Positions 19,372 through 51,676 are shown, counted from the stretch's first letter. The stretch is DNA of 64,000 bases from a virus (IMGVR_UViG_2974695582_000001:46918-110917); one strand, 5' to 3'. Translations and numbers: made by a program. Notes: a model not told the origin generated them from the letters alone.

Positions 19372-19442
19372 GTGGATATAGTGAAGTGGTATAACGGGTG
19401 TTTTGGGAACATCTGACGTCGGTTCGATTCCGGCTATCCGCA
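19372..19442 (+). tRNA. tRNA-Pro (anticodon TGG)
   Basis: Manual cloverleaf. Acceptor gtggata/tatccgc. Anticodon stem ggtgt/acatc with loop tttggga. T-arm gtcgg-ttcgatt-ccggc. Confidence 0.5.
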
Positions 19443-19569
19443 CGATGGGGGATGTAGAAGACCTCCAGGAGTATCGAAGGCCCCTAAATTAATGGGGAGC
19501 GCACCTGAGGATACGAAAACGATACACAGGGGACGCCCATCGCAGTATTGTGTCTCTTCTACAAGCTTC

Positions 19570-19644
19570 CGGGATGTAGCTCAGCTTGGTCAGAGCGCGC
19601 CGTTTGGGGCGGTGAAGTCGAAGGTTCGAATCCTTTCATCCCGA
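19570..19644 (+). tRNA. tRNA-Pro (anticodon TGG), second copy or variant
   Basis: Acceptor cgggatg/catcccg. D tagctcagcttggtcagagc. Anticodon loop tttgggg. T-loop ttcgaat. AAGCTT lies immediately 5' of the gene. Confidence 0.45.
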
Positions 19645-19679
19645 CTTCCTGAAATAAATGCCATGCAAAGGAAAGAGAA

Positions 19680-20183
19680 ATGAATGACATAATGACACGC
19701 GAGGACCTAATCCTTGCGATTGAGGCTAGAGACGGTTTAGACTGTTTCTTGTGTAAGAAGCCTTTTCTTGAAGGTGAAGAGGTTACTATTGACCACTGGT
19801 ACCCACAGTCTGTAGCATATGCAGAGGGTTGGACGTATGAGCAGGTTAATGACCTTTCTAACCTTAGGAAGGCTCACAGACTCTGCAACACTCAAAAGAG
19901 TGACCTTGTTCCAAATCCTGATGGTACGCTTCCTGAGCGTCCACGCAAGGATAGAACAATCAGGGTGCCTCGTCCAATGTCATGTGATACCTGCATGAAT
20001 GGTAGGATTCTTCTTCTTGGAGAATTCTGTCCGGATTGTAATTCTGGACCACAGCCAGCAAAGTTTCCTAAGACTTTGCAGAAGAGACCAAAGGAGTGTG
20101 ACCACTCAAGGTTCCACTGCTGGATGTGTGTAATTGGACATATCCCTCGCAAGTCTGCAATAGAAGCGATAATTACTGGTTGA
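19680..20183 (+). CDS. HNH endonuclease
   Basis: HNH motif TIDHWYPQS...NLRKAHRLCNTQK, with C-terminal CxxC pairs. Confidence 0.7.
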   Translation: MNDIMTREDLILAIEARDGLDCFLCKKPFLEGEEVTIDHWYPQSVAYAEGWTYEQVNDLSNLRKAHRLCNTQKSDLVPNPDGTLPERPRKDRTIRVPRPMSCDTCMNGRILLLGEFCPDCNSGPQPAKFPKTLQKRPKECDHSRFHCWMCVIGHIPRKSAIEAIITG

Positions 20184-20185
20184 GC

Positions 20186-20213
20186 TTGACACCCCAGTCG
20201 TCAAGTGATAAGG
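20186..20213 (+). promoter_or_regulatory. promoter TTGACAC-N-TGaTAAGGT (extended -10)
   Basis: -35 at 20186-20191. Extended -10 TGATAAGGT. Precedes tRNA-Gln. A near-identical promoter sits at 21168. Confidence 0.45.
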
Positions 20214-20286
20214 TAGTAACACGCCTTAAGGAACCGGCGATAATGTTCCTCGCAGTTACATCTCTGCGACAGCAAAAGATGGCAAT

Positions 20287-20359
20287 GCTCGCTAGCACAA
20301 TTGGCAGTTGCACTCCGCTCTGGACGGAGAGGTTCCAGGTTCGAATCCTGGGCGGGCAG
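20287..20359 (+). tRNA. tRNA-Gln (anticodon CTG)
   Basis: Acceptor tgctcgc/gcgggca. Anticodon stem ctccg/cggag with loop ctctgga. T-arm ccagg-ttcgaat-cctgg. Confidence 0.5.
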
Positions 20360-20387
20360 CAAGGTTGGTGAACCTTAAAATCACTTA

Positions 20388-20458
20388 TGCGTCCGTAGTG
20401 TAGTGGTAGCACACGAGCTTCCAAACCTCTTAGTCCGGGTTCGATTCCTGGCGGGCGT
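20388..20458 (+). tRNA. tRNA-Trp-like (anticodon CCA, weak anticodon stem)
   Basis: Acceptor gcgtccg/cgggcgt. D gtgt-agtggta-gcac. Loop ttccaaa. T-arm ccggg-ttcgatt-cctgg. Confidence 0.4.
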
Positions 20459-20589
20459 GCTTGTAAGGAGGTGTTACGATGAGGCGTATCAAAGCGCTAA
20501 TCAAGACACTAGTTGCTTCTAAGTTGTTCAAGGTAGCCCTTGACAAGTGGAAGCAAAGGAAGTATCGTAGTAATAAGTAAGAACAACGT

Positions 20590-20713
20590 TTTCGGGTCGG
20601 CAGGATGAGGGTTATCTAACCTACTATAAATTACACGCAATGGTAATTCCTGGTGGATTCCAGGGAGTGTGGTGACTATAACACTATCTCCCTCGCCAAT
20701 CACATATCCGAAT
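20590..20713 (+). ncRNA. Y RNA-like ncRNA (Ro60-binding type), locus 1
   Basis: 5' ttCGGGTCGGcaGGATGAGGGTTATCTAACc resembles the hY RNA GGUCCGAUGGUAGUGGGUUAUC motif. 3' cCCTCgccaatcaCATATCCGaat can pair with the 5' end. A TTGACA-N-TAGTAA promoter sits at 20550-20578. Confidence 0.5.
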
Positions 20714-20717
20714 ACAT

Positions 20718-20792
20718 TGGGGTATAGCTCGGTCTGGTGAGAGCACTCCGCTGATAACGGAGCGGTCGTGGGTTCAAATCCCACTGCCCCAA
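20718..20792 (+). tRNA. tRNA-Ile (anticodon GAT)
   Basis: Acceptor tggggta/tgcccca. Anticodon stem ctccg/cggag with loop ctgataa. T-arm gtggg-ttcaaat-cccac. Confidence 0.6.
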
Positions 20793-20793
20793 C

Positions 20794-20897
20794 TTTATGG
20801 GTCGGATGGAAACCTTTATCATAAGTTCAACTCTTATTATTCCCGCTCATGGGAATAGGGCGTGGTGCCCACTGGTTTACTGCAACATACCCATTAT
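20794..20897 (+). ncRNA. Y RNA-like ncRNA, locus 2
   Basis: 5' tttATGGGTCGGATGGaaacctttatca. 3' cATACCCATtat is complementary to the 5' end. Lies between tRNA-Ile and tRNA-Ser. Confidence 0.4.
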
Positions 20898-20984
20898 GGA
20901 AGGTCAATCCGATTGGCGACGGAACTTGTCTTGAAAACAAGCGAGGTGTGAAAGCCCTTAGGAGTTCGACTCTCCTACCTTCCG
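20898..20984 (+). tRNA. tRNA-Ser (anticodon TGA), type II
   Basis: Acceptor ggaaggt/accttcc (perfect). Anticodon stem cttgt/acaag with loop cttgaaa. Long variable arm. T-arm aggag-ttcgact-ctcct. Confidence 0.6.
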
Positions 20985-21167
20985 CTTTACCCTAAGGAGT
21001 AAAATTGACTGAGACAGAAAATGTCGGTCCTTCTTCCTATCAGCTAGCAATCATCCTTGCGCTTCAGAGCAAGCATGTGTATGCTAATACGGTAGATGAG
21101 AATGAGATTGCAAGACGACGTAAGGCAAGCAAGAGGGCGCGACTACAGCGCAGAGTAAATAGAAGGC

Positions 21168-21196
21168 TTGACACGACACGTCGCTCATGATAAGGT
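21168..21196 (+). promoter_or_regulatory. promoter TTGACAC-N17-TGaTAAGGT
   Basis: Same architecture as the 20186 promoter. Precedes tRNA-Asp. Confidence 0.45.
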
Positions 21197-21274: not shown

Positions 21275-21351
21275 GCCTCGTGGGGTTGCTAGGTTGTGGC
21301 CACTCCCCTGTCAAGGGAGACATCAGGCGGGTTCGATTCCCGTACGGGGCG
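21275..21351 (+). tRNA. tRNA-Asp (anticodon GTC), atypical D and variable regions
   Basis: Acceptor gcctcgt/acggggc. Anticodon stem ctccc/gggag with loop ctgtcaa. T-arm gcggg-ttcgatt-cccgt. Confidence 0.45.
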
Positions 21352-21376
21352 CTTTCGTAAATGAACAAAAGGAGTT

Positions 21377-21586: not shown

Positions 21587-21610
21587 GTAAAACAACAAAA
21601 TATTGAAAGC

Positions 21611-21683
21611 GTTCGGGTCGGATGCATTCGTTTATCACTCATTGGCGACTAAATAACGATTGCTCTAACATATCCGTGCACAA
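21611..21683 (+). ncRNA. Y RNA-like ncRNA, locus 3 (compact, about 70 nt)
   Basis: 5' gTTCGGGTCGGATGcattcGTTTATCACTCATTGg resembles hY1 GUUAUCUCAAUUG. 3' aaCATATCCGtgcac pairs with the 5' CGGAT. Confidence 0.5.
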
Positions 21684-21687
21684 CTTC

Positions 21688-21849
21688 TAGCCCCTAAAGA
21701 TTTCGGGTCGGATGTTCTTTGGTTAACTCAATTGGAATGAAAAGTTCTGGGTTCGAATCCCAGCGGGTCCACTCTTGGGCCTGTAGTTTAACTGGCAAAA
21801 CTAAAACCCGAGGAACGCTTATATATCCGTGATTATCTTTAGGGGCTAA
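21688..21849 (+). ncRNA. YrlA-like Y RNA with embedded tRNA-like module, locus 4
   Basis: 13-bp terminal stem TAGCCCCTAAAGA/TCTTTAGGGGCTA. Inner TTCGGGTCGGATG...GGTTAACTCAATTGGAATG Y motif. tRNA-like T-arm ctgggttcgaatcccag followed by cgggtcc. 3' partner tATATATCCGtga. Followed by AAGCTT. Confidence 0.55.
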
Positions 21850-22498: not shown

Positions 22499-24115
22499 AT
22501 GTCTAATGCACTTGGTAAGTACGCCGGTAGCCAGAAGGCTGCAAAGGTTGCGACTCCTCAGACAAAGCGGACTCCGGGCCGTACGGATGAGGTAAAGAAC
22601 AACGCGGGCGGGTTTGTGTTTAAGGTTGACGACAAGTCTCGACTTGAGCGTTTCCTTATCCTTGGTACTGATAAGGGTACCTACTACGTTGGTGAGCAGA
22701 AGTTGACGGCTCAGAACGTTTCTTTCCTGAAGAACCTGGTTCAGAAGGATGAGCGTCTGGTTGTGGACACGCTTGTTGACGTTTCTGTAAATGGTCGTGC
22801 GCTTAAGAATTCTCCTGCGCTGTTCGCTCTGGCCACGGTTATGACGGAGGGCAAGGATAAGGCTTACGCTCGTGAGGCCGTTCAGAAGGTTGCTCGTACT
22901 TCTACCCACCTTTTCGAGTACGCACAGTACATCGATGACCTGGGTGGTTGGGGTCGTGCAAAGCGTCGTTCTGTCGCTGAGTGGTACGAGAACAAGTCTC
23001 TGGATACGCTTGCGTATCAGGCTGTTAAGTACCGTCAGAGGAATGGTTGGACGCACCGTGACCTGTTCCGTCTGTCTCACCCTCAGGGTGTGGACCAGGG
23101 TGTTGGTAACTTCATCCTTGGTAAGGACGCAGAGTCTGAGGTGGAAATTCTTAAGGGCTTCGCTGAGATGCAGTCTGCGACTTCGGTCAAGGACGTTATC
23201 AAGACGCTGGAGACTTTTAAGAACCTTCCGTGGGAGACCATCCCTACTCAGTTCCTCAAGGACGTGAAGGTGTGGAAGACTCTCTTCTACAATGGTCAGC
23301 TTCGTGGCCAGGCTCTCATTCGCAACATCACTCGACTCGCTCGAATTGGTGCGTTTGATGACATGGTTTTCGCAACTGACTACGCGAATGCAATTGCTAA
23401 CCAGGAAATGATTCAGAAGACTCGTCTTCACCCAATCAACTTCCTGAATGCGGTTGTTGTTCATGAGTACGGTCAGATTGACCGTAACGGCTACAGCATG
23501 TGGAGTGCCGGACGTAAGAAGGATTGGAAGTCTAATGGAAAGATTGTGGATGCTCTCAATGAGGGATTCCACATGGCGTTCAAGGCTGTCGAGCCTTCTG
23601 GCAAGAGGACTCTTGTTGCGACTGACGTTTCTGGCTCAATGAGTCAGAGCGCTATCGGACTCGACCTTTCTTGTGCTCAGGTTTCTGCGGCTGTTGCTAT
23701 GACGGTTGCTCGCACCGAGCCTTACAGTGACATTGTTGGCTTCTCTAGCAGCATTGTTGACTTGGGTATTACCGCAAAGAGTTCTTTTGCCGACGCAATG
23801 CGTAAGGTGAGTAACAGGAACTTCGGTGGTACGGATGCGGCTGCTGCAATTAAGTACGCTGACCAGAAGGGAATTCAGGTTGACACCTTCGTCGTTATCA
23901 CTGATAACGAGACGTGGGGCGGAAGCCAGAAGCCTTTCCAGGCACTTAAGCAGTACCGTCAGAAGACCGGAATCGATGCGCGTCTAGCGGTTCTTGGTGT
24001 TGCGTCTACGGACTTCAGCATCGCTGACCCAACTGACCGTGGTATGATGGACTTCGTTGGTTTCGATGCCAATGCGCCAAGGGCTCTTGCAGACTTCAGC
24101 GCTGGTCGTATCTGA
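22499..24115 (+). CDS. rsr: Ro60/TROVE-domain ribonucleoprotein (Rsr ortholog) with C-terminal vWA/MIDAS
   Basis: Direct similarity to the Ro60 TROVE core: RLERFLILGTDKGTYYVGEQKL versus human [22 protein letters not shown], plus PALFALA. vWA MIDAS motif VATDVSGSMS. About 538 aa from ATG 22499. Confidence 0.9.
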   Translation: MSNALGKYAGSQKAAKVATPQTKRTPGRTDEVKNNAGGFVFKVDDKSRLERFLILGTDKGTYYVGEQKLTAQNVSFLKNLVQKDERLVVDTLVDVSVNGRALKNSPALFALATVMTEGKDKAYAREAVQKVARTSTHLFEYAQYIDDLGGWGRAKRRSVAEWYENKSLDTLAYQAVKYRQRNGWTHRDLFRLSHPQGVDQGVGNFILGKDAESEVEILKGFAEMQSATSVKDVIKTLETFKNLPWETIPTQFLKDVKVWKTLFYNGQLRGQALIRNITRLARIGAFDDMVFATDYANAIANQEMIQKTRLHPINFLNAVVVHEYGQIDRNGYSMWSAGRKKDWKSNGKIVDALNEGFHMAFKAVEPSGKRTLVATDVSGSMSQSAIGLDLSCAQVSAAVAMTVARTEPYSDIVGFSSSIVDLGITAKSSFADAMRKVSNRNFGGTDAAAAIKYADQKGIQVDTFVVITDNETWGGSQKPFQALKQYRQKTGIDARLAVLGVASTDFSIADPTDRGMMDFVGFDANAPRALADFSAGRI

Positions 24116-25405: not shown

Positions 25406-25478
25406 GGTCCCGTAGCTCAGTGGATAGAGCAACGGCTTGCGGAGCCGTGTGTCGGAGGTTCGAATCCTCTCGGGACTA
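25406..25478 (+). tRNA. tRNA-Arg (anticodon GCG)
   Basis: Acceptor ggtcccg/cgggact. D tagctcagtggatagagc. Anticodon stem acggc/gccgt with loop ttgcgga. T-arm ggagg-ttcgaat-cctct. Confidence 0.5.
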
Positions 25479-25482
25479 CTTT

Positions 25483-25556
25483 GCCCCTGTATTGGCCCGG
25501 TCTTCTAAACCAGAGGTGCATAACGGATGATGCTGGTTCGAATCCAGTCGGGGGTG
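25483..25556 (+). ncRNA. tRNA-like element (acceptor + T-arm, non-canonical D/anticodon region)
   Basis: Acceptor gcccctg/cgggggt. T-arm gctgg-ttcgaat-ccagt. No canonical anticodon arm could be folded. Confidence 0.3.
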
Positions 25557-25667
25557 CGCTATGAAAATGCTGCGAAAGAACTCTTCTTGGCAAAATTGGT
25601 CCAAGACATATGGCAGTCCTAGAAAAAGAAACGATAGGGCTTTTGAAAAGAGGCAGTGGGTGAGAGA

Positions 25668-27181: not shown

Positions 27182-27254
27182 GCTCCGGTAGCTCAGTTGG
27201 CAGAGCAGGCGGCTCTTAACCGTCGTGTCGGGAGTTCAAGTCTCCCTCGGAGTA
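27182..27254 (+). tRNA. tRNA-Lys (anticodon CTT)
   Basis: Acceptor gctccgg/tcggagt. D tagctcagttggcagagc. Anticodon stem ggcgg/ccgtc with loop ctcttaa. T-arm gggag-ttcaagt-ctccc. Confidence 0.55.
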
Positions 27255-27270
27255 CGTATAATATAATATG

Positions 27271-28332: not shown

Positions 28333-28406
28333 GGCGGCTTAGCTCATCTGGTTAGAGCGTTCCCCTCATAAGGGAAAGGCAACTGGTTCGAATCCAGTAG
28401 CCGCTA
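28333..28406 (+). tRNA. tRNA-Met (anticodon CAT; elongator or Ile-lysidine type)
   Basis: Acceptor ggcggct/agccgct. D tagctcatctggttagagc. Anticodon stem ttccc/gggaa with loop ctcataa. T-arm actgg-ttcgaat-ccagt. Confidence 0.6.
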
Positions 28407-28407
28407 C

Positions 28408-28480
28408 TGCGCGGTAGTGGAGTTCGGTTCCACGCAGGGCTCATAATCCTGAAACACCGGTTCGAATCCGGTCTGCGCCA
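28408..28480 (+). tRNA. tRNA-fMet-like initiator (anticodon CAT)
   Basis: 1:72 mismatch (T·C). GGG/CCU-type anticodon stem caggg/tcctg with loop ctcataa. T-arm accgg-ttcgaat-ccggt. Confidence 0.45.
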
Positions 28481-28481
28481 C

Positions 28482-28553
28482 GGTCCTTTAGCTTAGTTGG
28501 TAAAGCGCGGGTGTGAAGTACCTGAGTCTGCGGTTCGATTCCGTGATGGACCA
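28482..28553 (+). tRNA. tRNA-Phe (anticodon GAA)
   Basis: Acceptor ggtcctt/atggacc. D tagcttagttggtaaagc. Anticodon stem cgggt/acctg with loop gtgaagt. T-loop ttcgatt. Confidence 0.55.
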
Positions 28554-28704
28554 CGTGGTAAATACAAAGAAGAATCCATTGCACAAGGCTCAATCAAGAA
28601 TTGAAGCCGAAGCATGGATTGACAGCACTGGTAAGAGTAAGTATCCTGGTGAGAAGCTAATTATTCATCGTCAGGGTTCCGAGTGGCACGTATATAAGGG
28701 GTAA
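28513..28704 (+). CDS. hypothetical protein (5' end overlaps tRNA-Phe; true start may be internal)
   Basis: 63-aa ORF. Confidence 0.3.
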   Translation: MKYLSLRFDSVMDHVVNTKKNPLHKAQSRIEAEAWIDSTGKSKYPGEKLIIHRQGSEWHVYKG

Positions 28705-29244: not shown

Positions 29245-29330
29245 GGATGTATAACACGTAATTGGTAGCGTCGCGGCCTGTAAAGCCGTTGTCCGAAAGG
29301 GCTCTGGGGGTTCAAGTCCCTCTGCATCCA
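29245..29330 (+). tRNA. tRNA-Tyr (anticodon GTA), type II
   Basis: Acceptor ggatgta/tgcatcc. Anticodon stem gcggc/gccgt with loop ctgtaaa. Long variable arm. T-arm ggggg-ttcaagt-ccctc. Confidence 0.55.
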
Positions 29331-29332
29331 CT

Positions 29333-29406
29333 GTGACTGTAGCATAACTGGCTAATGCACTACGTTGTGGTCGTAGCAAATGCGGGTTCAAATCCCGTCA
29401 GTCACC
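29333..29406 (+). tRNA. tRNA-His (anticodon GTG)
   Basis: Acceptor gtgactg/cagtcac. D tagcataactggctaatgc. Anticodon stem ctacg/cgtag with loop ttgtggt. T-arm gcggg-ttcaaat-cccgt. Confidence 0.6.
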
Positions 29407-29408
29407 CC

Positions 29409-29480
29409 GGTCCTTTGTTGCGAGTGGTTAGCAATCGGTCTGCAAAACCGAATACGTCGGTTCGAATCCGACAAGGGCCT
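29409..29480 (+). tRNA. tRNA-Cys (anticodon GCA)
   Basis: Acceptor ggtcctt/aagggcc. Anticodon stem tcggt/accga with loop ctgcaaa. T-arm gtcgg-ttcgaat-ccgac. Confidence 0.5.
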
Positions 29481-29859
29481 CTATACATTCCCCACCTGAA
29501 TGTAGAGGGTAACCGAAAGTGTAAAAGTCAGCTAACTGACTGCCTGTGTAAGTGGAACGGGACGCTTCTAGCAGAGCGATTTGTCTAAAGGGATAGCCCG
29601 TAAAATCCTTTAGTGCCAGAGACTACAATGTGCTAGCATTGCTGGTAGTTCCGGGGAAGAGCCTAGTCAGCTTCAGCCGGTTTTGTTATAGTAGCAATAA
29701 AAGTAATAAGGTGTTTCACCAGTCGTCACCTTGTAAATCTAGGCTGGAGTAGCTAATCAAAGTTAGGGGCGTGGAGCCCAAACCTTTGAGAATGGCCGGG
29801 GATGGTTCTCCCTGCTGCGAATGAACCCTAGAGCGTAAGCTAGTTAATCTTACGCACAT

Positions 29860-29931
29860 TCCCTCGTAGCTCAACGGCAGAGCAGAGAGCTGTTAACTCT
29901 AAGGTTGTTGGTTCGAGTCCAGCCGGGGGAG
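29860..29931 (+). tRNA. tRNA-Asn (anticodon GTT)
   Basis: Acceptor tccctcg/cggggga. D tagctcaacggcagagc. Loop ctgttaa. T-arm gttgg-ttcgagt-ccagc. Confidence 0.5.
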
Positions 29932-30040
29932 CTTGGTGGTATCGGTTGAATACCCACAAAGGATAATCCGTATATCCTGGTAGACGCGCTTTCGCGGCGG
30001 GTTATCTGAATGTAAAGGAGTCACGTCCAATCAACCACTT

Positions 30041-30111
30041 GCCTCTATGGTGTAAAGGATGCACAATAGTCTTCGGAACTATTAGTCCGGGTTCGAATCC
30101 TGGTGGGGGTA
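30041..30111 (+). tRNA. tRNA-Arg (anticodon TCG)
   Basis: Acceptor gcctcta/tgggggt (G·U rich). D gtgt...gcac. Anticodon stem atagt/actat with loop cttcgga. T-arm ccggg-ttcgaat-cctgg. Confidence 0.5.
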
Positions 30112-30131
30112 CTTTAATAGAAGGAGATGAG

Positions 30132-30343: not shown

Positions 30344-30415
30344 GCTTCTGAAGTTCAACGGATGAACAACTCCCTCCTAAGGAGTAGGCTGCTGGTTCGA
30401 ATCCAGTCAGGAGCA
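30344..30415 (+). tRNA. tRNA-Arg (anticodon CCT)
   Basis: Acceptor gcttctg/caggagc. D aagttcaacggatgaac. Anticodon stem actcc/ggagt with loop ctcctaa. T-arm gctgg-ttcgaat-ccagt. Confidence 0.55.
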
Positions 30416-30720
30416 CTTCAGTTCTGGTAAAAATCCAGTCTGAGTTTATACAGAGTTTGGAAGGTAAGCCGGTTCGATTCCGGCAGACTGATGGGTCAGG
30501 GCGCGGTTCGAGTCCGCTATATAAATATGGGTGCAAATAGGGTAGCTCCCGCCGAGTCAGGTTCGAATCCTGGCACTCTGTATAAAGCTTACAAGACACG
30601 GGGGCTTGGCCCGTCCTCCAATCATGAGTCTTGGGTCTCAGTCCAATCGAGATTTAGAGTTAACGGGCTTGCCAGGGGTAGCTTGGTTTCGACTTTGCTG
30701 GATGACATATGAACGCAACC
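30416..30720 (+). other. cluster of degenerate tRNA fragments / T-arm-like hairpins (no intact cloverleaf)
   Basis: Four GGTTCGA(A/T/G)TCC T-arm hairpins, at 30470, 30497, 30560 and about 30690. One has a perfect 7-bp acceptor-like pairing (cagtctg/cagactg) but only about 25 nt between acceptor and T-arm. Confidence 0.4.
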
Positions 30721-35124: not shown

Positions 35125-35143
35125 CGTATTGTATAATAGTTCC

Positions 35144-38644: not shown

Positions 38645-38673
38645 CGTAAAGATTAACAATCAAGGAGTTAATA

Positions 38674-39489: not shown

Positions 39490-39561
39490 GCCGGTTTAGC
39501 TCAGCGGAAGAGCGTCTGCCTTACAAGCAGAGGGCCGGGGGTTCAACTCCCTCAACCGGTA
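39490..39561 (+). tRNA. tRNA-Val (anticodon TAC)
   Basis: Acceptor gccggtt/aaccggt. D tagctcagcggaagagc. Anticodon stem tctgc/gcaga with loop cttacaa. T-arm ggggg-ttcaact-ccctc. Confidence 0.6.
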
Positions 39562-39653
39562 CGCTATGAGAAAGTTTAAGATTGAGGAATGGTGTGGCCC
39601 ATTCCTCATCATCTTTGTAGCTATAATGATTATCTATAGTGAAAACAAATAAT

Positions 39654-39727
39654 GGCGGTGTAGCCCAATGGCAGGAGGCGGCAGATTCAAAACCTGTACA
39701 GTGTGGGTTCGAATCCCACCACCGCTA
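39654..39727 (+). tRNA. tRNA, class I, apparent anticodon CAA (Leu-like, unusual)
   Basis: Acceptor ggcggtg/caccgct. T-arm gtggg-ttcgaat-cccac. Best anticodon fold gcaga/cctgt with loop ttcaaaa and a short variable arm. Confidence 0.4.
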
Positions 39728-39831
39728 CATGTCTCTTGGAAGACCACCGGGCGAAGTCCCGAATCCAAGTGGTGGTACAAAACCACGACAGCCGCGACCT
39801 TCTACAGGTCCTAAAAGATAAAAGGAGAATC

Positions 39832-45518: not shown

Positions 45519-46298
45519 ATGTCTAAGATTATGATTCTTGGTGACGTTCATGGCGAGACTAAGTGGCTTGTCAACATGATTAACAAGGCAAAGCGGGCGG
45601 GTGTCAAGAAGATTGTTCAGGTTGGTGACTTCGGAATGTGGACTCACGAGGCTGAGGGTCACCGGTTCCTTGACCGCTCGAATGAGGAGCTTCGTAAGCA
45701 TGGAATTAAGCTCTATTTCGTTGGCGGTAACCATGAGAACTGGGACCACCTAAATTGGCATGAGAAGAATGGCGCAAAGGACTGGAATGGACATACGTTC
45801 ATTCGGTCTCACATCCTTTACACTGGTCGAGTTAATCGCTGGGTTTGGGGTGAGAAGGGTGAGGAGAAGGTTTTCCAGGCCGTTGGTGGCGCATGGTCAA
45901 TTGACCGTCGTCGGCGGGTTGTGGGAAAGACTCTTTGGCTTGATGAGACTATTCCAGACCAGGTTGTTTATGGACTGGAGAAGGCCAATCGTAAGTGTGA
46001 CTATCTGTTCACTCATGATGGTCCTACCTGTCTTCCCTATGCCAATCTGAAGCCTGACCCTGACTCTCATATCCATCGTCAGAAGATGGACCGAATTGGA
46101 CTTGCAACCCGGCCGAATCTGTGGTTTCATGGTCACTATCACAAGTGGATGGAGTACAGCTTTGAGCACACGCAGAGGAGCGATTTCGCCTTTGTGTATG
46201 GTCTTGACCGGGATTACCAGTTCTATTCTTATGTGATTCTGGACACAGTTTCCGATGATGTGGAGACTGCAACAGGTAAGGTTATTGAGCACAGTTAA
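45519..46298 (+). CDS. calcineurin-like metallophosphoesterase (Ser/Thr phosphatase fold)
   Basis: Motifs ILGDVHGE, VGDFG, GGNHE and HGHYH. Confidence 0.75.
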   Translation: MSKIMILGDVHGETKWLVNMINKAKRAGVKKIVQVGDFGMWTHEAEGHRFLDRSNEELRKHGIKLYFVGGNHENWDHLNWHEKNGAKDWNGHTFIRSHILYTGRVNRWVWGEKGEEKVFQAVGGAWSIDRRRRVVGKTLWLDETIPDQVVYGLEKANRKCDYLFTHDGPTCLPYANLKPDPDSHIHRQKMDRIGLATRPNLWFHGHYHKWMEYSFEHTQRSDFAFVYGLDRDYQFYSYVILDTVSDDVETATGKVIEHS

Positions 46299-46894: not shown

Positions 46895-46967
46895 GATTCG
46901 TTAGCTCAGTTGGCAGAGCGGGGAACTTTTAATTCCACGGTCCTCGGTTCGAGTCCGAGACGAATCA
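46895..46967 (+). tRNA. tRNA-Lys (anticodon TTT)
   Basis: Acceptor gattcgt/acgaatc. D tagctcagttggcagagc. Loop cttttaa. T-arm ctcgg-ttcgagt-ccgag. Confidence 0.6.
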
Positions 46968-47037
46968 CTATTGACACAGCAGTGTCAAGAATGTTAAGAT
47001 GTTTGTATAATGCAACTTAAGCGAAAGGTAAGGACTA

Positions 47038-48261: not shown

Positions 48262-48334
48262 CCCTGGTTAGTTTAATTGGTAAAACGGTCGATTTATAGT
48301 CGGCTATATACAGGTTCGAATCCTGTACTGGGGA
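48262..48334 (+). tRNA. tRNA-Ile (apparent anticodon TAT, AUA-reading)
   Basis: Acceptor ccctggt/actgggg. D tagtttaattggtaaaac. Anticodon stem gtcga/tcggc with loop tttatag. T-arm acagg-ttcgaat-cctgt. Confidence 0.45.
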
Positions 48335-48385
48335 CTTTCAAAAGGCAAATTGGACTTTTAAGTTCTACAGATATATACTTTAAAC

Positions 48386-49608: not shown

Positions 49609-49684
49609 GCTCCGGTGGTCTAGTCTGGTCTAGGATACTTGACTCTCAATCAAGAGGGCACGGGTTCGAATCCCGTTCGGAGTA
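49609..49684 (+). tRNA. tRNA-Glu (anticodon CTC)
   Basis: Acceptor gctccgg/tcggagt. D gtctagtctggtctagga. Anticodon stem cttga/tcaag with loop ctctcaa. T-arm acggg-ttcgaat-cccgt. Confidence 0.55.
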
Positions 49685-49789
49685 CAAGCATTGACAATCG
49701 AGCGTACTAGCGCTAGTATTGAGAGAAACCGCAAGATTGTTAATGACTAGGTTGAGTAGCTACCATTACGAACGCTCAATAACCGACAT

Positions 49790-49864
49790 GCCCCGTTAGT
49801 CTAGTGGCCTAGGATTCCGGATTTTCACTCCGCGAGAACATCGGTTCGAATCCGATACGGGGTA
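49790..49864 (+). tRNA. tRNA-Glu (anticodon TTC)
   Basis: Acceptor gccccgt/acggggt. D gtctagtggcctagga. Loop ttttcac. T-arm atcgg-ttcgaat-ccgat. Confidence 0.55.
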
Positions 49865-49865
49865 C

Positions 49866-50258: not shown

Positions 50259-50332
50259 TCCGTAGTAGTGAAATGGTATCACTTCTGCTTGCCAAGCAGA
50301 CAGCGCGAGTTCGATTCTCGTCTACGGGACCA
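50259..50332 (+). tRNA. tRNA-Gly (anticodon GCC), genomically encoded CCA
   Basis: Acceptor tccgtag/ctacggg. D gtga-aatggta-tcac. Anticodon stem tctgc/gcaga with loop ttgccaa. T-arm gcgag-ttcgatt-ctcgt. 3' ACCA. Confidence 0.6.
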
Positions 50333-50335
50333 TGA

Positions 50336-50378
50336 ACAGGCACACCGGGTAAAGCCGCACTGCCTGTCTTTTTTATCC
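50336..50378 (+). terminator. Rho-independent terminator
   Basis: ACAGGCAcaccgggtaaagccgcacTGCCTGTcttttttat. Confidence 0.55.
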
Positions 50379-50400
50379 ATAAACAAAGTTAGGATTAGCA

Positions 50401-50922
50401 ATGATTCAGATTGGTATTCGCGTCCGAGTTCTCGATAACTATTCTGGTGGTCTTGGAAATACGATTGGTCGTACTGGCAAGGTTCTTCGTGCTAGCTCGG
50501 AAGGTCTCTACCTCCTTGACATCAAGGGCAGTCGTAAGGCTTCCTGGGGTGACTACACCTACGAGCGAGACGTTATTGTGAAGGCTGACGAAATTGAGCC
50601 GGTCTCCTTCGACCTGAAGGATGCTCAGGGACGTAAGATTGAGCTTGGCGACAAGGTTGCTTACGGTCCTCTCGGTGGTGGTGTTACTATCGGTACTGTT
50701 GTTGATATCGATGAGCGCGAGGGGCGATACGGTTACAAGACTACGAAGTTCCGTCTTGAGACTAATGGTAAGGATTATTTCAACGATGGTGGTGACCGAA
50801 CGATTTCGGGCGGTCACCTTAAGACTTATCGTTGGTATGAGCACTCTGGACGATGTGTTATCATCGAAAAGAATCCGATTAATGCGGATGTGTTTGAACT
50901 GCGCTCGGTTCCTATGCCATGA
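50401..50922 (+). CDS. hypothetical protein (tandem KOW/SH3-like repeats)
   Basis: 173-aa ORF. Confidence 0.5.
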   Translation: MIQIGIRVRVLDNYSGGLGNTIGRTGKVLRASSEGLYLLDIKGSRKASWGDYTYERDVIVKADEIEPVSFDLKDAQGRKIELGDKVAYGPLGGGVTIGTVVDIDEREGRYGYKTTKFRLETNGKDYFNDGGDRTISGGHLKTYRWYEHSGRCVIIEKNPINADVFELRSVPMP

Positions 50923-51086
50923 AGAAGCCAAAGCCACTAGGAAAGGGAAACTACAGAGTTTGCCCTACTTGCGGAGGCCAAGGCGTTAAGGCTAATATGC
51001 GTAAGTATCCAAAGAGTCCAACAAATGATGCTGTCGTTTGGGAAGACTGCAAAACTTGCAAGACTGTTGGTTGGATTGAGGCTTGA
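50919..51086 (+). CDS. DnaJ-type zinc-finger mini-protein
   Basis: ATGA overlap. Contains CPTCGGQG...CKTCKTVG. Confidence 0.45.
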   Translation: MKKPKPLGKGNYRVCPTCGGQGVKANMRKYPKSPTNDAVVWEDCKTCKTVGWIEA

Positions 51087-51112
51087 CAGCCCTGGTCTGA
51101 CTGTGTTACAGT
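51084..51112 (+). promoter_or_regulatory. promoter TTGACA-N17-TACAGT driving a Y RNA plus tRNA-Gly
   Basis: -35 at 51084-51089. -10 at 51107-51112. The Y-RNA motif begins about 10 nt downstream. Confidence 0.45.
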
Positions 51113-51121
51113 AGATATATC

Positions 51122-51224
51122 GGGTCGGACGGATAGGGTTATCTAACAATCAATTGATGATGAGCCTTCGGGCAACCCTGCGGCGGGTATAGCCGCATCT
51201 CCCTTCCTCAACATATCCGATGTA
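51122..51224 (+). ncRNA. Y RNA-like ncRNA, locus 5
   Basis: atCGGGTCGGACGGATAGGGTTATCTAACAATCAATTGATGatgag resembles hY4 GGUCCGAUGGUAGUGGGUUAUC and hY1 ...AAUUGAUUG. Has an internal gcc-ttcg-ggc hairpin. 3' ACATATCCGATG pairs with the 5' TCGGA. Confidence 0.55.
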
Positions 51225-51227
51225 TTT

Positions 51228-51298
51228 GCGGGTGTAGTTTAATGGTAGAACAACAGACTTCCACTCTGTTAGCGGGGGTTCGATTCCCCCTACCCGCT
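51228..51298 (+). tRNA. tRNA-Gly (anticodon TCC)
   Basis: Acceptor gcgggtg/tacccgc. D tagtttaatggtagaac. Anticodon stem acaga/tctgt with loop cttccac. T-arm ggggg-ttcgatt-ccccc. Confidence 0.6.
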
Positions 51299-51310
51299 CG
51301 AAACGAATGT

Positions 51311-51345
51311 CCCCGCTGGTAAAAACTGGCGGGGCTTCGTTGTTT
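51311..51345 (+). terminator. Rho-independent terminator
   Basis: CCCCGCtggtaaaaactgGCGGGGcttcgttgtttc. Confidence 0.5.
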
Positions 51346-51363
51346 CTATGGTAAGATGGAGTC

Positions 51364-51561
51364 ATGGAAGAAATCGTATCCTACAGCTTTGCTGTAGACA
51401 TCTACAAGAATGATTCTGGAACCTTCACCTATGGTGTCTTCCAGGAGATTGAGTCAGATGAGGATGACGAGCTACAGTTGCTTGAGACTGGTGAAGCTGA
51501 TACACTTGCTGAAGCAGCCGAGATTGCTGGTCGTAGCATCAAGACATTGTTCGTCGTCTGA
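51364..51561 (+). CDS. hypothetical acidic protein
   Basis: 65-aa ORF. Confidence 0.4.
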   Translation: MEEIVSYSFAVDIYKNDSGTFTYGVFQEIESDEDDELQLLETGEADTLAEAAEIAGRSIKTLFVV

Positions 51562-51604
51562 ATTTTATGGCAAATTTTGACGAGGGTTCGTAAAGGGCCT
51601 TCTA

Positions 51605-51676
51605 TCCCCCTTAGTGTAATTGGCAGCACGACTGTCTTTGGAACAGTTAGTTCGAGTTCGAGTCTCGCCGGGGGAG
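51605..51676 (+). tRNA. tRNA-Gln (anticodon TTG)
   Basis: Acceptor tccccct/cggggga. D gtgt-aattggca-gcac. Anticodon stem actgt/acagt with loop ctttgga. T-loop ttcgagt. Confidence 0.5.

What the first reader, a model, noticed from the sequence alone, without database searches (positions are those of the whole stretch)
19372..51676. Large tRNA island (about 30 genes) with unusual members
Manually folded tRNAs cover nearly all amino acids. Oddities: two UGG (Pro) genes about 130 nt apart. An initiator-like tRNA with a 1:72 mismatch right after an elongator CAU gene. A UAU anticodon tRNA (AUA-Ile decoding without lysidine). A class I tRNA whose best fold gives anticodon CAA. A Trp-like tRNA with a weak anticodon stem. 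tRNA-Gly(GCC) with encoded CCA. Anticodon assignments came from hand folding and several are uncertain.
Basis: seen in the sequence. Interest (0 to 1): 0.5.

Follow-up and report, generated by a model that had tools for sequence, protein, structure and literature searches.

The report
Annotated phage tRNA island, oddities mostly explained
The window is the already-annotated tRNA and tmRNA gene island of Streptomyces phage Comrade; the odd-looking tRNAs are real and conserved in related phages, most have known explanations, and one annotated "tRNA" is really a different structured RNA.

Summary
The window is 100% identical to Streptomyces phage Comrade (cluster BE, Gilsonvirus). ARAGORN finds 31 tRNAs plus a tmRNA at 19372-51677, all on the + strand, exactly as GenBank annotates them. 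Shuffled sequence gives none. Rfam supports 29 tRNAs and the tmRNA.

They are conserved traits of this phage family, not pseudogenes.
- The class I tRNA(CAA) matches the type I tRNA-Leu(CAA) that Streptomyces LeuRS is known to charge.
- The second CAU tRNA keeps a U1xC72 mismatch in five phages, which is initiator-like.
- The paired Pro(UGG) genes and Ile(UAU) occur across the family.
- Thr is missing only because three Thr genes lie outside the window.

- The tmRNA.
- "tRNA-Ser(cga)" is a false call on a conserved 142-nt RNA with three T-arm hairpins.
- An unannotated YrlA-like Y RNA lies next to the Ro60 gene.
- tRNA-Asp has a remodelled D arm.
- There is a decayed tRNA-Arg(UCU).

The most likely function is a near-complete decoding set for an AT-rich phage in a GC-rich host, with tRNA-repair genes alongside. 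The island is already known; interest is modest.

The parts
19372..19443 (+). tRNA-Pro(UGG) copy 1. Divergent paralogue with G1-C72, A73 and a Gly-like D arm.
   Evidence: ARAGORN; Rfam 54.3 bits. Conserved as a pair with copy 2 in Gilson, Kenrey, Blueeyedbeauty and Evy, with compensatory acceptor changes.
19570..19645 (+). tRNA-Pro(UGG) copy 2. Canonical bacterial type with C1-G72, A73, G37.
   Evidence: (60.2 bits).
20286..20360 (+). tRNA-Gln(CUG)
   Evidence: 50.7 bits.
20389..20460 (+). tRNA-Trp(CCA) with G73. The anticodon stem has two mismatches.
   Evidence: (52.1 bits). Blueeyedbeauty and Evy orthologues have one mismatch, A31xC39.
20718..20793 (+). tRNA-Ile(GAU)
   Evidence: 66.5 bits.
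20898..20985 (+). tRNA-Ser(UGA), class II
   Evidence: Rfam reports it under the tRNA-Sec model (47.1 bits) through clan competition. The anticodon is UGA, not UCA.
21275..21352 (+). tRNA-Asp(GUC) with a remodelled D arm and an 8-nt variable region. G occupies positions 8 and 14 in place of U8 and A14.
   Evidence: ARAGORN. No Rfam tRNA hit at threshold (25.3 bits to the Sec model). Compensatory changes in the acceptor and D stems in Gilson and Kenrey; the Blueeyedbeauty orthologue is canonical.
21602..21687 (+). Small conserved stem-loop RNA module that shares the helix CGGGU/AUCCG with the Y RNA. Possibly a second, YrlB-like Y RNA.
   Evidence: Covariation is weak: 2 of 12 pairs.
21689..21847 (+). 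Unannotated YrlA-like Y RNA. It has a 14-bp basal stem, internal helices, and a permuted tRNA-like domain made of a T arm (21747-21763), a closed 7-bp acceptor-like hairpin and a D arm.
   Evidence: Rfam YrlA 28.2 bits, E 3.4e-4, below GA 69. In an 11-phage alignment, 44 pairs are predicted and 13 have compensatory double changes. The element is present in 33 phage records. It is unannotated in most and mis-annotated as tRNA-His or tRNA-Ser in two.
22499..24115 (+). Ro60 orthologue (TROVE plus Ro60 vWA domains)
   Evidence: GenBank annotation. Pfam TROVE 2.6e-38 and vWA_Ro60 3.2e-56.
25406..25479 (+). tRNA-Arg(GCG)
   Evidence: 67.8 bits.
25483..25557 (+). Decayed tRNA-Arg(UCU). The acceptor stem, the loop CUUCUAA, the T arm and G73-C74 are kept. 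The D arm and the 5' anticodon stem are lost.
   Evidence: Rfam 23.2 bits only. The 3' half and acceptor match the intact tRNA-Arg(UCU) of Blueeyedbeauty and of IMG/VR contig L144.
26834..26909 (+). tRNA-Ala(UGC)
   Evidence: 61 bits.
27182..27255 (+). tRNA-Lys(CUU)
   Evidence: 58.2 bits.
28333..28407 (+). tRNA(CAU), elongator Met type, with G1.U72 and A73. An Ile2/lysidine substrate is not excluded.
   Evidence: (67.5 bits).
28408..28481 (+). tRNA(CAU), initiator-like. It has a U1xC72 mismatch, with G29-C41, G30-C40 and G31.U39.
   Evidence: (53.5 bits). The mismatch is kept in Gilson, Kenrey, Blueeyedbeauty and Evy, while other acceptor pairs change with compensation.
28482..28554 (+). tRNA-Phe(GAA), with zero spacer after the preceding tRNA
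   Evidence: (54.1 bits).
29245..29331 (+). tRNA-Tyr(GUA), class II
   Evidence: 46 bits.
29333..29408 (+). tRNA-His(GUG) with C73. Position -1 is T, so no G-1 is encoded.
   Evidence: (61.1 bits).
29409..29481 (+). tRNA-Cys(GCA)
   Evidence: 52.8 bits.
29860..29932 (+). tRNA-Asn(GUU)
   Evidence: 59.9 bits.
30041..30112 (+). tRNA-Arg(UCG)
   Evidence: 54 bits.
30344..30416 (+). tRNA-Arg(CCU)
   Evidence: 62 bits.
30445..30586 (+). Conserved structured RNA that is not a tRNA. A 12-bp closing stem encloses three T-arm-like hairpins (30468-84, 30502-18, 30557-73). ARAGORN and GenBank call its 5' part (30445-30526) tRNA-Ser(cga).
   Evidence: No Rfam tRNA hit. The 'anticodon' CGA is the middle of a UUCGAUU T loop. 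The closing stem and T arm 3 covary in six phages and in one IMG/VR contig. Found in 26 phage records.
30675..30952 (+). tmRNA, 278 nt, tag ANSKNASAYALAA
   Evidence: ARAGORN; Rfam RF00023 83.4 bits, E 7e-31.
35035..35125 (+). tRNA-Ser(GCU), class II
   Evidence: 54.7 bits.
36207..37247 (+). T4 Rnl1-type RNA ligase
   Evidence: GenBank annotation. Pfam RNA_lig_T4_1 4.4e-16.
37660..38085 (+). Polynucleotide kinase (P-loop kinase)
   Evidence: GenBank annotation. Pfam AAA_33 1.8e-19.
38562..38645 (+). tRNA-Leu(UAG), class II
   Evidence: 52.3 bits.
39490..39562 (+). tRNA-Val(UAC)
   Evidence: 70 bits.
39654..39728 (+). Class I (type I) tRNA-Leu(CAA). It has a 5-nt variable loop ACAGU, a 3-bp Leu-type D stem, U8, A14, G18G19, A73 and C74.
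   Evidence: (55.6 bits). It replaces a class II Leu(CAA) found in the same slot in Gilson, Kenrey and Blueeyedbeauty. It belongs to the same family as the S. coelicolor type I tRNA-Leu(CAA), which ScoLeuRS charges (PMC6614811), and as 78 class I tRNA-Leu genes in bacterial genomes.
45519..46298 (+). Metallophosphoesterase
   Evidence: GenBank annotation. Pfam Metallophos_2 1.1e-5, just below the cutoff.
46895..46968 (+). tRNA-Lys(UUU)
   Evidence: 63.8 bits.
48262..48335 (+). tRNA-Ile(UAU) with A37 and A73
   Evidence: (59.8 bits). Present in all five phages compared, with compensatory stem changes.
49609..49685 (+). tRNA-Glu(CUC)
   Evidence: 63 bits.
49790..49865 (+). tRNA-Glu(UUC)
   Evidence: 54 bits.
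50259..50332 (+). tRNA-Gly(GCC) with U1.G72, A73 and a full encoded CCA
   Evidence: (62.1 bits).
51228..51299 (+). tRNA-Gly(UCC), canonical, with G1-C72 and U73
   Evidence: 71.9 bits.
51605..51677 (+). tRNA-Gln(UUG)
   Evidence: 50.3 bits.
57336..57983 (+). Second RNA ligase, downstream of the island
   Evidence: GenBank annotation. Pfam RNA_ligase 1.5e-17.

Best explanation
The feature is the tRNA/tmRNA island of Streptomyces phage Comrade, a virulent cluster BE siphovirus of about 129 kb and 47% G+C that infects a host of about 72% G+C.

Shown:
- 30 genuine tRNA genes and one tmRNA gene lie co-oriented among small ORFs. Several abut with 0-1 nt spacers.
- With three tRNA-Thr genes elsewhere in the genome, they cover all 20 amino acids.
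- The 'odd' members are conserved in related phages with compensatory changes, so they are maintained genes.

Inferred mechanism:
- The genes are transcribed within long rightward transcripts and cut out by host RNase P and 3' processing. Every gene encodes C74, so RNase P cleavage at a zero-spacer junction would leave N73-C74.
- The ends are then completed by the host CCA-adding enzyme, and the tRNAs are charged by host synthetases.
- The set supplies one U34 tRNA per four-codon box and the NNA/NNG readers of split boxes. These are the decoders a GC3-rich host has least of. The host's abundant G34 tRNAs read the phage's favoured NNU codons.
- The class I tRNA-Leu(CAA) is charged by Streptomyces LeuRS, as the host's own type I tRNA-Leu(CAA) is.
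- The U1xC72 CAU tRNA acts as an extra initiator, and tRNA-Ile(UAU) reads AUA without lysidine.
- The tmRNA, the Ro60 + YrlA-like RNA pair and the Rnl1-type ligase/kinase/phosphoesterase genes are accessory modules. They add RNA quality control and tRNA repair, which buffer tRNA damage or depletion during infection.
For: - Identity: 100% match to Comrade, with the same annotation.
- Genuineness: ARAGORN and Rfam agree, and shuffles give 0 calls.
- Whole-genome census: Thr(GGU, CGU, UGU) lie at record 4150-4581, and there are no tRNAs in the rest of the genome.
- Conservation: the island is syntenic in Gilson, Kenrey and Blueeyedbeauty and its members recur in Evy, with covariation in Pro1, Met2, Asp, Ile(UAU) and Gly(GCC).
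- Codon usage: phage GC3 is 0.46, against about 0.87 in a Streptomyces sample. Every U34 phage tRNA has a cognate NNA codon that is 1.5-16 times more frequent in the phage than in that sample.
- Leucylation of a type I tRNA-Leu(CAA) by Streptomyces LeuRS is experimentally established (PMC6614811).
- Ro60, Rnl1, kinase and phosphoesterase domains are present, and the Y RNA shows covariation.
- Published view of cluster BE tRNA arrays: PMC5764925.
Against: Codon compensation alone does not fit several facts.
- ATA (1.4 per 1000) and AAA (3.9 per 1000) are strongly avoided, yet tRNA-Ile(UAU) and tRNA-Lys(UUU) are kept.
- AGA makes up 19% of Arg codons, but the tRNA-Arg(UCU) gene has decayed.
- The most used codons (NNT in four-codon boxes) have no dedicated phage tRNA.
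- C34 tRNAs serve codons that the host also favours.
- Two Pro tRNAs share one anticodon.

The host codon sample is tiny (1518 codons from two Streptomyces contigs). No expression, processing, charging or formylation data were available.
Confidence: 0.7

Rival explanations
1. The main role is counter-defence rather than codon matching. The phage carries its own nuclease-insensitive replacement set of tRNAs, plus tRNA-like decoys and a repair kit. Translation can then continue when host anticodon nucleases or other tRNA-targeting immune systems, or phage-induced host shut-off, deplete host tRNAs.
For: - The set is nearly complete (all 20 amino acids), including tRNAs for codons the phage barely uses (ATA, AAA) and for codons the host already serves well.
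- Duplicate, structurally divergent isoacceptors exist: Pro1 versus Pro2, and a D-arm-remodelled Asp.
- T4 Rnl1-type ligase, kinase and phosphoesterase genes sit inside the island.
- Two tRNA-mimic RNAs are conserved: the YrlA-like RNA and the triple-T-arm RNA.
- This hypothesis is published for phage tRNAs (PMC10264068; PMC11555353), and Hughes et al. offered it for BE phages.
Against: No host tRNA sequences were available, so anticodon loops could not be compared. No tRNA-targeting defence system is known here for the isolation host. The U34-rich composition is what codon compensation predicts. The two ideas are not mutually exclusive.
Confidence: 0.35
2. The unusual members are decaying or non-functional copies, that is, pseudogenes left by tRNA gene turnover, and only the canonical members matter.
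For: Turnover does happen in this island.
- tRNA-Arg(UCU) has decayed in Comrade.
- Leu(GAG) is absent from Comrade but present in relatives.
- tRNA-Asp fails the Rfam tRNA threshold.
- The Trp anticodon stem has two mismatches.
Against: - All six flagged genes score 52-68 bits in Rfam.
- Pro1, CAU-2, Ile(UAU), Gly(GCC) and Asp are retained across phage genera with compensatory base-pair changes.
- The U1xC72 mismatch is kept specifically, while neighbouring pairs covary.
Confidence: 0.1
3. Some odd members recode or mistranslate. For example, the class I CAA tRNA or Pro1 (G1-C72) could be charged with a non-cognate amino acid, or the CAU tRNAs could include a lysidine-modified Ile2.
For: Identity elements deviate from bacterial norms.
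- Pro1 has C72 where E. coli-type ProRS uses G72.
- Gly(GCC) has A73 and U1.G72.
- tRNA-His lacks an encoded G-1.
- Met1 cannot be told apart from Ile2(CAU) by sequence.
Against: - The class I CAA tRNA has the Leu-type D arm and a 5-nt variable loop like the leucylated S. coelicolor tRNA.
- AUA is already covered by Ile(UAU).
- No phage-encoded synthetase or TilS was seen in the annotation.
- No aminoacylation data exist.
Confidence: 0.07

Closest known systems
tRNA/tmRNA arrays of cluster BE Streptomyces phages (Stanwilliamsviridae; Hughes et al. 2018, PMC5764925)
   Same: It is the same genome type, and the window is a member (Comrade, 100% identity). The island follows the terminase gene, with tens of tRNAs and one tmRNA interspersed with small ORFs, in a low-GC genome that infects a high-GC host.
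   Different: Comrade has 34 tRNAs in total, against 43-48 in the BE1 phages described. Three Thr genes sit on the other arm. The Comrade lineage lacks Leu(GAG) and an intact Arg(UCU).
Cluster C mycobacteriophages (Bxz1, ET08): about 30 tRNAs, a tmRNA, Ro60 and a YrlA RNA (Chen et al. 2014, PMC4201824)
   Same: Large actinobacteriophages that carry a tRNA array, a tmRNA, a Ro60 orthologue and a YrlA-type tRNA-like Y RNA next to it. Class I tRNA-Leu homologues are also present.
   Different: They are different phage families with no DNA similarity outside the RNA genes. The Streptomyces-phage Y RNA scores below the Rfam YrlA threshold and is unannotated.
Streptomyces coelicolor type I tRNA-Leu(CAA) (Fan et al. 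2019, PMC6614811)
   Same: CAA anticodon, 5-nt variable loop (ACAGC in the host, ACAGU in the phage), U8-A14, G18G19 and C74, in the same host genus whose LeuRS charges type I tRNA-Leu.
   Different: The phage copy has its own acceptor stem (G1.U72, GGCGGUG), closer to Erwinia-phage class I tRNA-Leu. The S. coelicolor sequence itself could not be retrieved for direct alignment, and charging of the phage tRNA is untested.
Phage T4 tRNA cluster with Rnl1/Pnkp tRNA repair and the small stable species 1/2 RNAs (from general knowledge)
   Same: A tRNA cluster includes an AUA-reading tRNA-Ile, is accompanied by an Rnl1-type ligase plus polynucleotide kinase, and encodes extra small structured RNAs of unknown role.
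   Different: T4 has 8 tRNAs and no tmRNA, Ro60 or Y RNA. No homology between the T4 species RNAs and the triple-T-arm RNA was tested.
tRNA-Ile(UAU) of Mycoplasma mobile and other TilS-lacking bacteria (from general knowledge)
   Same: AUA is decoded by a UAU anticodon instead of a lysidine-modified CAU.
   Different: Here the tRNA comes from a phage in a host that presumably has TilS. Whether Streptomyces IleRS accepts UAU is unknown.

Membership tests
Cluster BE / Stanwilliamsviridae phage tRNA island | Sequence identity and synteny with annotated members | tested here: met
   100% identity to NC_048728/MH651172 over 12 kb. The same 31 tRNA + tmRNA annotation. A syntenic island in Gilson, Kenrey and Blueeyedbeauty.
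Canonical tRNA (Rfam RF00005) | Covariance-model score at or above the gathering threshold for each ARAGORN call | tested here: met
   28 calls score 46-72 bits (GA 29). Ser(UGA) is reported under the clan-mate Sec model. Exceptions are Asp(GUC), which is atypical, and 'Ser(cga)', which is rejected.
tRNA-Ser(CGA) (GenBank gene 129) | tRNA covariance score; a genuine anticodon loop; class II architecture | tested here: not met
   No Rfam tRNA hit even at E<=10. The 'anticodon arm' is a GGUUCGAUUCC T arm. The better closing stem spans 30445-30586 and covaries in relatives.
Bacterial initiator tRNA (tRNA-fMet) | CAU anticodon with an unpaired 1:72 | tested here: met
   U1xC72 in Comrade, Gilson, Kenrey, Blueeyedbeauty and, in my register, Evy. 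The canonical bacterial form is C1xA72.
Bacterial initiator tRNA (tRNA-fMet) | Three consecutive G:C pairs 29:41, 30:40, 31:39 | tested here: inconclusive
   G29-C41 and G30-C40 are present in all phages compared. 31:39 is G.U in four of them and C-G in Blueeyedbeauty.
Bacterial initiator tRNA (tRNA-fMet) | A11:U24 in the D stem | tested here: not met
   The D stem GUGG/CCAC gives U11:A24.
Bacterial initiator tRNA (tRNA-fMet) | Formylation by MTF and use in initiation | not testable with these tools
   Needs biochemical assay.
Type I (class I) tRNA-Leu of Streptomyces / Actinomycetota | Leu anticodon, 5-nt variable loop, 3-bp D stem with an A14 A15 ... G18 G19 loop, U8, C74 | tested here: met
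   Cloverleaf. The D arm GUAGCCCAAUGGCAGGAGGC matches 78 class I tRNA-Leu genes found in bacterial genomes. Features agree with those listed for ScotRNA-Leu(CAA).
Type I (class I) tRNA-Leu of Streptomyces / Actinomycetota | Leucylation by host LeuRS | not testable with these tools
   Shown for the S. coelicolor tRNA (PMC6614811), not for the phage copy.
tRNA-Ile(UAU) | UAU anticodon in a canonical cloverleaf with A37 and A73, conserved in relatives | tested here: met
   (59.8 bits).
tmRNA (RF00023) | tRNA-like domain plus a tag reading frame ending ALAA | tested here: met
   83.4 bits, E 7e-31; tag ANSKNASAYALAA. The overlapping 'permuted tmRNA' hit (49.5 bits) is explained by the shared 5' half plus an upstream hairpin.
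YrlA-type Y RNA (RF02553) | Encoded next to a Ro60 orthologue; long terminal stem; domain ordered T arm, closed acceptor-like stem, D arm | tested here: met
   The RNA ends about 650 nt upstream of the Ro60 gene. For structure and covariation.
YrlA-type Y RNA (RF02553) | Rfam gathering score | tested here: not met
   28.2 bits against GA 69. Only the tRNA-like domain aligns.
YrlA-type Y RNA (RF02553) | Binding to Ro60 | not testable with these tools
   Needs RIP or in vitro binding.

The most novel reading that the evidence does not exclude
Beside its tRNAs, the island encodes a set of tRNA mimics that act as decoys, sponges or processing signals for enzymes that recognise the tRNA elbow. The set comprises the YrlA-like RNA and, above all, the conserved 142-nt RNA with three T-arm hairpins inside a covarying closing stem. 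Targets could be host tRNA-targeting nucleases, RNase P, or modification enzymes. The structurally divergent tRNAs (Pro1, the Asp lacking U8 and A14, the 1:72 wobble or mismatch tRNAs, the His without G-1) could be variants selected to escape such host factors. On this reading, the triple-T-arm RNA would be a new class of phage non-coding RNA that is currently mis-annotated as a tRNA.
Probability: 0.2. Interest if true: 0.6.

Novelty: already known. Interest (0 to 1): 0.3.

Why it matters
The island itself adds nothing new. It is a deposited, annotated genome, and tRNA arrays of this phage cluster are published. The value of the check lies in three points.

1. The six 'oddities' are real, selected features, so the phage family is a natural test bed for three questions:
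- Whether a phage can supply its own initiator tRNA.
- Whether host IleRS accepts a UAU tRNA-Ile.
- Whether host LeuRS charges a phage class I tRNA-Leu in a host with a published type I tRNA-Leu system.

2. Public annotation contains errors that spread. A T arm read as an anticodon gives 'tRNA-Ser(cga)' here and in Sham, and 'tRNA-His' in Blueeyedbeauty.

3. Two conserved non-coding RNAs in the island are unannotated. One is a Y RNA partner for the phage Ro60. The other is a three-T-arm RNA of unknown function. Both are cheap to test by RNA-seq of infected cells.

Tried and rejected
- Missing tRNA-Thr as an oddity: rejected. Three Thr genes lie at record 4150-4581, outside the window.
- The class I CAA tRNA as a class II Leu(CAA) that lost its variable arm: rejected. 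The stems are unrelated to the class II gene in the same slot of Gilson, Kenrey and Blueeyedbeauty.
- The class I CAA tRNA as a mutated Met or Val tRNA: rejected in favour of the Leu-type D arm family.
- Ser(UGA) as a selenocysteine tRNA: rejected. The Rfam label comes from clan competition, and the anticodon is UGA, not UCA.
- A permuted tmRNA at 30560-30802 (49.5 bits): judged a by-product of the ordinary tmRNA 5' half plus an upstream hairpin followed by CCUCCA. In Gilson the same leader lies about 190 nt away from the tmRNA.
- Retrieving the S. coelicolor tRNA-Leu(CAA) or host initiator tRNAs: failed. The one genome scan returned only two Streptomyces contigs, without an intact gene. The paper has no held supplement. 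No actinobacterial initiator turned up in the sampled loci.
- RNAalifold on the triple-T-arm RNA: uninformative, because MAFFT misaligned the closing stems. I replaced it with direct pairing counts.
- The amber-suppressor-like 'tRNA-Pyl(cta)' in IMG/VR contig L144: this is a mis-registered tRNA-Arg(UCU).
- The element at 25483-25557 as a functional D-armless tRNA: considered, but it is absent from Gilson and Kenrey and shows rearrangement, so I call it a remnant.

Full report
**Identity and observation.** Window 19000-31000 is 100% identical to Streptomyces phage Comrade (NC_048728 / MH651172). Comrade is 129,015 bp, a Gilsonvirus of the Stanwilliamsviridae, isolated on S. griseus. Window position equals record position minus 46,917.

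ARAGORN finds 31 tRNAs and one tmRNA between 19372 and 51677, all on the + strand. GenBank annotates exactly the same genes. Twenty locally shuffled copies of the window gave no calls, against 32 in the real sequence. Rfam at gathering threshold supports 29 tRNAs (46-72 bits) and the tmRNA (83.4 bits).

Hughes et al. 2018 described cluster BE phages as carrying tens of tRNAs plus a tmRNA (PMC5764925). As a feature, the island is already known.

**The six listed oddities.**

1. *Two Pro(UGG) genes.* They lie at 19372-19443 and 19570-19645. Copy 2 is the canonical bacterial type (C1-G72, A73). Copy 1 is a divergent paralogue (G1-C72, with a different D arm). The pair is present in Gilson, Kenrey, Blueeyedbeauty and the distant Evy, and copy 1 shows compensatory acceptor changes. 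Both copies are therefore maintained. Why two tRNAs share one anticodon remains open.

2. *The two CAU tRNAs.* They abut with no spacer, at 28333-28407 and 28408-28481.
- The second has a U1xC72 mismatch, with G29-C41, G30-C40 and G31.U39.
- The mismatch is retained in all five phages, while neighbouring acceptor pairs covary. This argues for an initiator-type role.
- A11:U24 is not present, and the mismatch is U/C rather than the canonical C/A.
- The first copy looks like an elongator Met. A lysidine-dependent Ile2 cannot be excluded from sequence alone.

3. *tRNA-Ile(UAU).* It lies at 48262-48335, scores 59.8 bits and is conserved in all five phages.

4. *The class I tRNA with anticodon CAA.* It lies at 39654-39728 and scores 55.6 bits.
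- It has a 5-nt variable loop (ACAGU), a 3-bp Leu-type D stem, U8, A14, G18G19, A73 and C74.
- In Gilson, Kenrey and Blueeyedbeauty the same slot holds a class II Leu(CAA) with unrelated stems. This is a replacement, not a deletion.
- Fan et al. 2019 showed that S. coelicolor's own tRNA-Leu(CAA) is type I, with the variable loop ACAGC. Its LeuRS charges this tRNA, but E. coli LeuRS does not (PMC6614811).
Of these, 78 are class I tRNA-Leu genes, mostly in Actinomycetota.
- Homologues annotated as tRNA-Leu occur in 249 phage records.
- The oddity is real but explained. It is the host-type tRNA-Leu(CAA).

5. *tRNA-Trp.* It lies at 20389-20460 and has only 3 of 5 anticodon-stem pairs. It still scores 52.1 bits and has G73.

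6. *tRNA-Gly(GCC).* It is the only gene with a full encoded CCA. It also has U1.G72 and A73, unlike the canonical Gly(UCC) in the same island.

- *The tmRNA.* It lies at 30675-30952 and encodes the tag ANSKNASAYALAA.
- *tRNA-Thr.* It is absent from the window only because Thr(GGU), Thr(CGU) and Thr(UGU) lie at record 4150-4581 on the other strand. The genome total is 34 tRNAs covering all 20 amino acids.
- *'tRNA-Ser(cga)' (30445-30526) is a false call.*
  - It has no Rfam tRNA hit.
  - Its 'anticodon arm' is a T arm, GCCGG-UUCGAUU-CCGGC.
  - The real unit is 30445-30586. A perfect 12-bp closing stem encloses three T-arm-like hairpins and an invariant core.
  - The unit occurs in 26 phage records from several genera and in one IMG/VR contig.
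  - Its closing stem and third T arm covary completely.
  - Its function is unknown.
- *An unannotated YrlA-like Y RNA.*
  - It lies at 21689-21847, in the 288-nt gap upstream of the Ro60 gene. Pfam finds TROVE and vWA_Ro60 domains in that protein.
  - It has a T arm, a closed 7-bp acceptor-like hairpin, a D arm and a 14-bp basal stem.
  - Rfam YrlA scores 28.2 bits, which is below threshold.
  - Across 11 phages, 44 pairs are predicted. Thirteen have compensatory double changes and almost none are broken.
  - Chen et al. 2014 reported such RNAs next to Ro60 in mycobacteriophages but do not mention Streptomyces phages (PMC4201824).
  - In Blueeyedbeauty and Sham this element is annotated as tRNA-His and tRNA-Ser(cga).
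- *tRNA-Asp(GUC) (21275-21352).* It lacks U8 and A14, has a remodelled D arm and fails the Rfam threshold. It is nonetheless conserved with compensatory changes in Gilson and Kenrey. The Blueeyedbeauty orthologue is canonical.
- *A rearranged remnant of tRNA-Arg(UCU).* It lies at 25483-25557.

**How it probably works.**

*Processing.* All genes point the same way as the flanking ORFs. Met-Met-Phe and Tyr-His-Cys are joined by spacers of 0-1 nt. Every supported tRNA and the tmRNA encode C at position 74, but only Gly(GCC) has the full CCA. I infer three steps:
- excision from long transcripts by RNase P, which at a zero-spacer junction would leave N73-C74;
- completion by the CCA-adding enzyme;
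- charging by host synthetases.

*Codon usage.* Phage GC3 is 0.46, against about 0.87 in a small Streptomyces sample. NNT codons dominate in the phage. The phage supplies a U34 tRNA for every four-codon box plus the NNA/NNG readers of split boxes, and their cognate NNA codons are enriched in the phage. The G34 tRNAs for Ala, Val, Pro, Ser(UCN) and Leu(CUN) are left to the host, which must have them in abundance for its NNC codons. This fits codon compensation.

*What does not fit.*
- ATA and AAA are avoided (observed/expected 0.11 and 0.16) although their tRNAs are kept.
- TTA is avoided (0.10) and has no phage tRNA.
- AGA makes up 19% of Arg codons, yet its tRNA has decayed.

*The main rival.* The near-completeness of the set, the divergent duplicates, the two tRNA mimics and the T4 Rnl1-type ligase, kinase and phosphoesterase genes fit a counter-defence or replacement role. 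That hypothesis is published for phage tRNAs (PMC10264068). I regard the two roles as complementary. I put codon-matched supply first at 0.7 overall, including the identity claims.

**Comparison with known systems, and verdict.** The window is a member of the cluster BE tRNA islands by identity and synteny. Its closest analogues elsewhere are:
- cluster C mycobacteriophages (tRNAs, tmRNA, Ro60, YrlA);
- the T4 tRNA cluster with Rnl1/Pnkp.

The class I tRNA-Leu belongs to the Streptomyces/actinobacterial type I family. The CAU-2 tRNA works like an initiator but meets only part of the bacterial initiator definition. The finding is already known and correctly read by the first stage. Its 'unusual members' are genuine and mostly explained.

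The side results are an unannotated Y RNA, a mis-annotated three-T-arm RNA and an atypical tRNA-Asp. They are modestly novel and easy to test. Interest is 0.3.

Noticed in passing
window 21689-21847: An unannotated YrlA-like Y RNA lies upstream of the phage Ro60 gene. It has a T arm, a closed acceptor-like hairpin, a D arm and a long basal stem. Thirteen of its 44 pairs show compensatory changes across 11 phages. In related genomes it is annotated as tRNA-His (Blueeyedbeauty) or tRNA-Ser(cga) (Sham).
   Followed up: yes
window 21602-21687: A second small conserved module lies directly upstream of the Y RNA. It shares the invariant motifs UUCGGGUCGG ... AUAUCCG. It may be a YrlB-like second Ro partner. 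Covariation support is weak.
   Followed up: partly
window 30445-30586: A conserved 142-nt RNA has a covarying 8-12 bp closing stem around three (two in Blueeyedbeauty) GGUUCGAnUCC T-arm hairpins and the invariant core AAAUAGGGUAGCUCCCGCCG. Its 5' part is annotated as tRNA-Ser in Comrade, SparkleGoddess, Belfort and Karp. It always sits next to tRNA-Arg(CCU/UCU) or the tmRNA. Its function is unknown.
   Followed up: partly
window 25483-25557: A rearranged remnant of tRNA-Arg(UCU) directly follows tRNA-Arg(GCG). The acceptor stem, the loop CUUCUAA, the T arm and G73-C74 are kept, but the D arm is lost. Intact orthologues exist in Blueeyedbeauty, Evy and IMG/VR contig L144. AGA is still 19% of the phage's Arg codons.
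   Followed up: partly
window 21275-21352: tRNA-Asp(GUC) has G at positions 8 and 14 in place of U8 and A14, a remodelled D arm and an 8-nt variable region. It fails the Rfam tRNA threshold but is conserved with compensatory changes in Gilson and Kenrey. Gilson and Kenrey tRNA-Trp also have an aberrant D arm.
   Followed up: partly
all tRNA 3' ends, e.g. junctions 28407/28408, 28481/28482, 29408/29409: Every supported tRNA and the tmRNA encode C74, but only Gly(GCC) has the full CCA. At zero-spacer junctions the next tRNA starts right after C74. The same C74-only pattern is common in the sampled, mostly actinobacterial, chromosomal tRNA genes: 196 of 225 have C74 and only 85 have CCA.
   Followed up: partly
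window 29332-29408: tRNA-His(GUG) keeps C73, but the base at -1 is T in Comrade, Gilson, Kenrey and Blueeyedbeauty. No G-1 is encoded. A single T separates it from tRNA-Tyr.
   Followed up: no
window 50259-50332: tRNA-Gly(GCC) has U1.G72 and A73 in all five phages, instead of the bacterial G1-C72 and U73 seen in the neighbouring Gly(UCC).
   Followed up: no
window 30590-30674: A conserved leader upstream of the tmRNA has a hairpin ACGGG-GGCUUGG-CCCGU followed by CCUCCAAUCA. Together with the tmRNA 5' half it triggers an Rfam 'permuted tmRNA' hit at 49.5 bits (GA 47). The same leader is present in Gilson about 190 nt from the tmRNA.
   Followed up: partly
loci L010-L129 (bacterial genomes); phage records: Class I tRNA-Leu genes with the D arm GUAGCCCAAYNGGCAGAGGC are far more widespread than the literature read here suggests. 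They have anticodons UAA, UAG, CAA, CAG and GAG. Homologues occur in 249 phage records, including Mycobacterium, Erwinia, Salmonella, Bacillus and Pseudomonas phages and cyanophages.
   Followed up: partly
L006 409-486 and 655-731 (Erwinia phage Hena2); L007 (phiEa21-4): Felix O1-like Erwinia phages carry class I tRNA-Leu(AAG) and tRNA-Leu(UAA), about 79% identical to the Comrade tRNA and with the same G1.U72 acceptor. E. coli LeuRS was reported unable to charge the Streptomyces type I tRNA-Leu, so how these are charged in an enterobacterial host is unclear.
   Followed up: no
L002 18965-19040 (Gilson), L003 20130-20203 (Kenrey), L004 16552-16637 (Blueeyedbeauty): Gilson and Kenrey have a class I tRNA-Leu(GAG). 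It shares acceptor and anticodon stems with the class II Leu(GAG) of Blueeyedbeauty at the same locus. This suggests an in-place class II to class I conversion by replacement of the D arm and variable arm. Comrade lacks this gene.
   Followed up: partly
whole Comrade genome (window plus L008, L009): TTA (0.8 per 1000), ATA (1.4) and AAA (3.9) are 6-10 fold rarer than base composition predicts, in a 47% GC genome. The phage carries tRNAs for ATA and AAA but not for TTA.
   Followed up: partly
window 41089-41772 and 27325-28131: Two ORFs annotated as hypothetical have clear Pfam domains: Sir2 family (1.9e-36) and vWA-TerF-like (1.2e-25).
   Followed up: no
window 33786-33802: An orphan T-arm-like hairpin, GUGAG-UUCGAAU-CUCAC, sits in a stretch conserved in Gilson and Kenrey, downstream of their Leu(GAG) gene. 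It may be another tRNA remnant.
   Followed up: no
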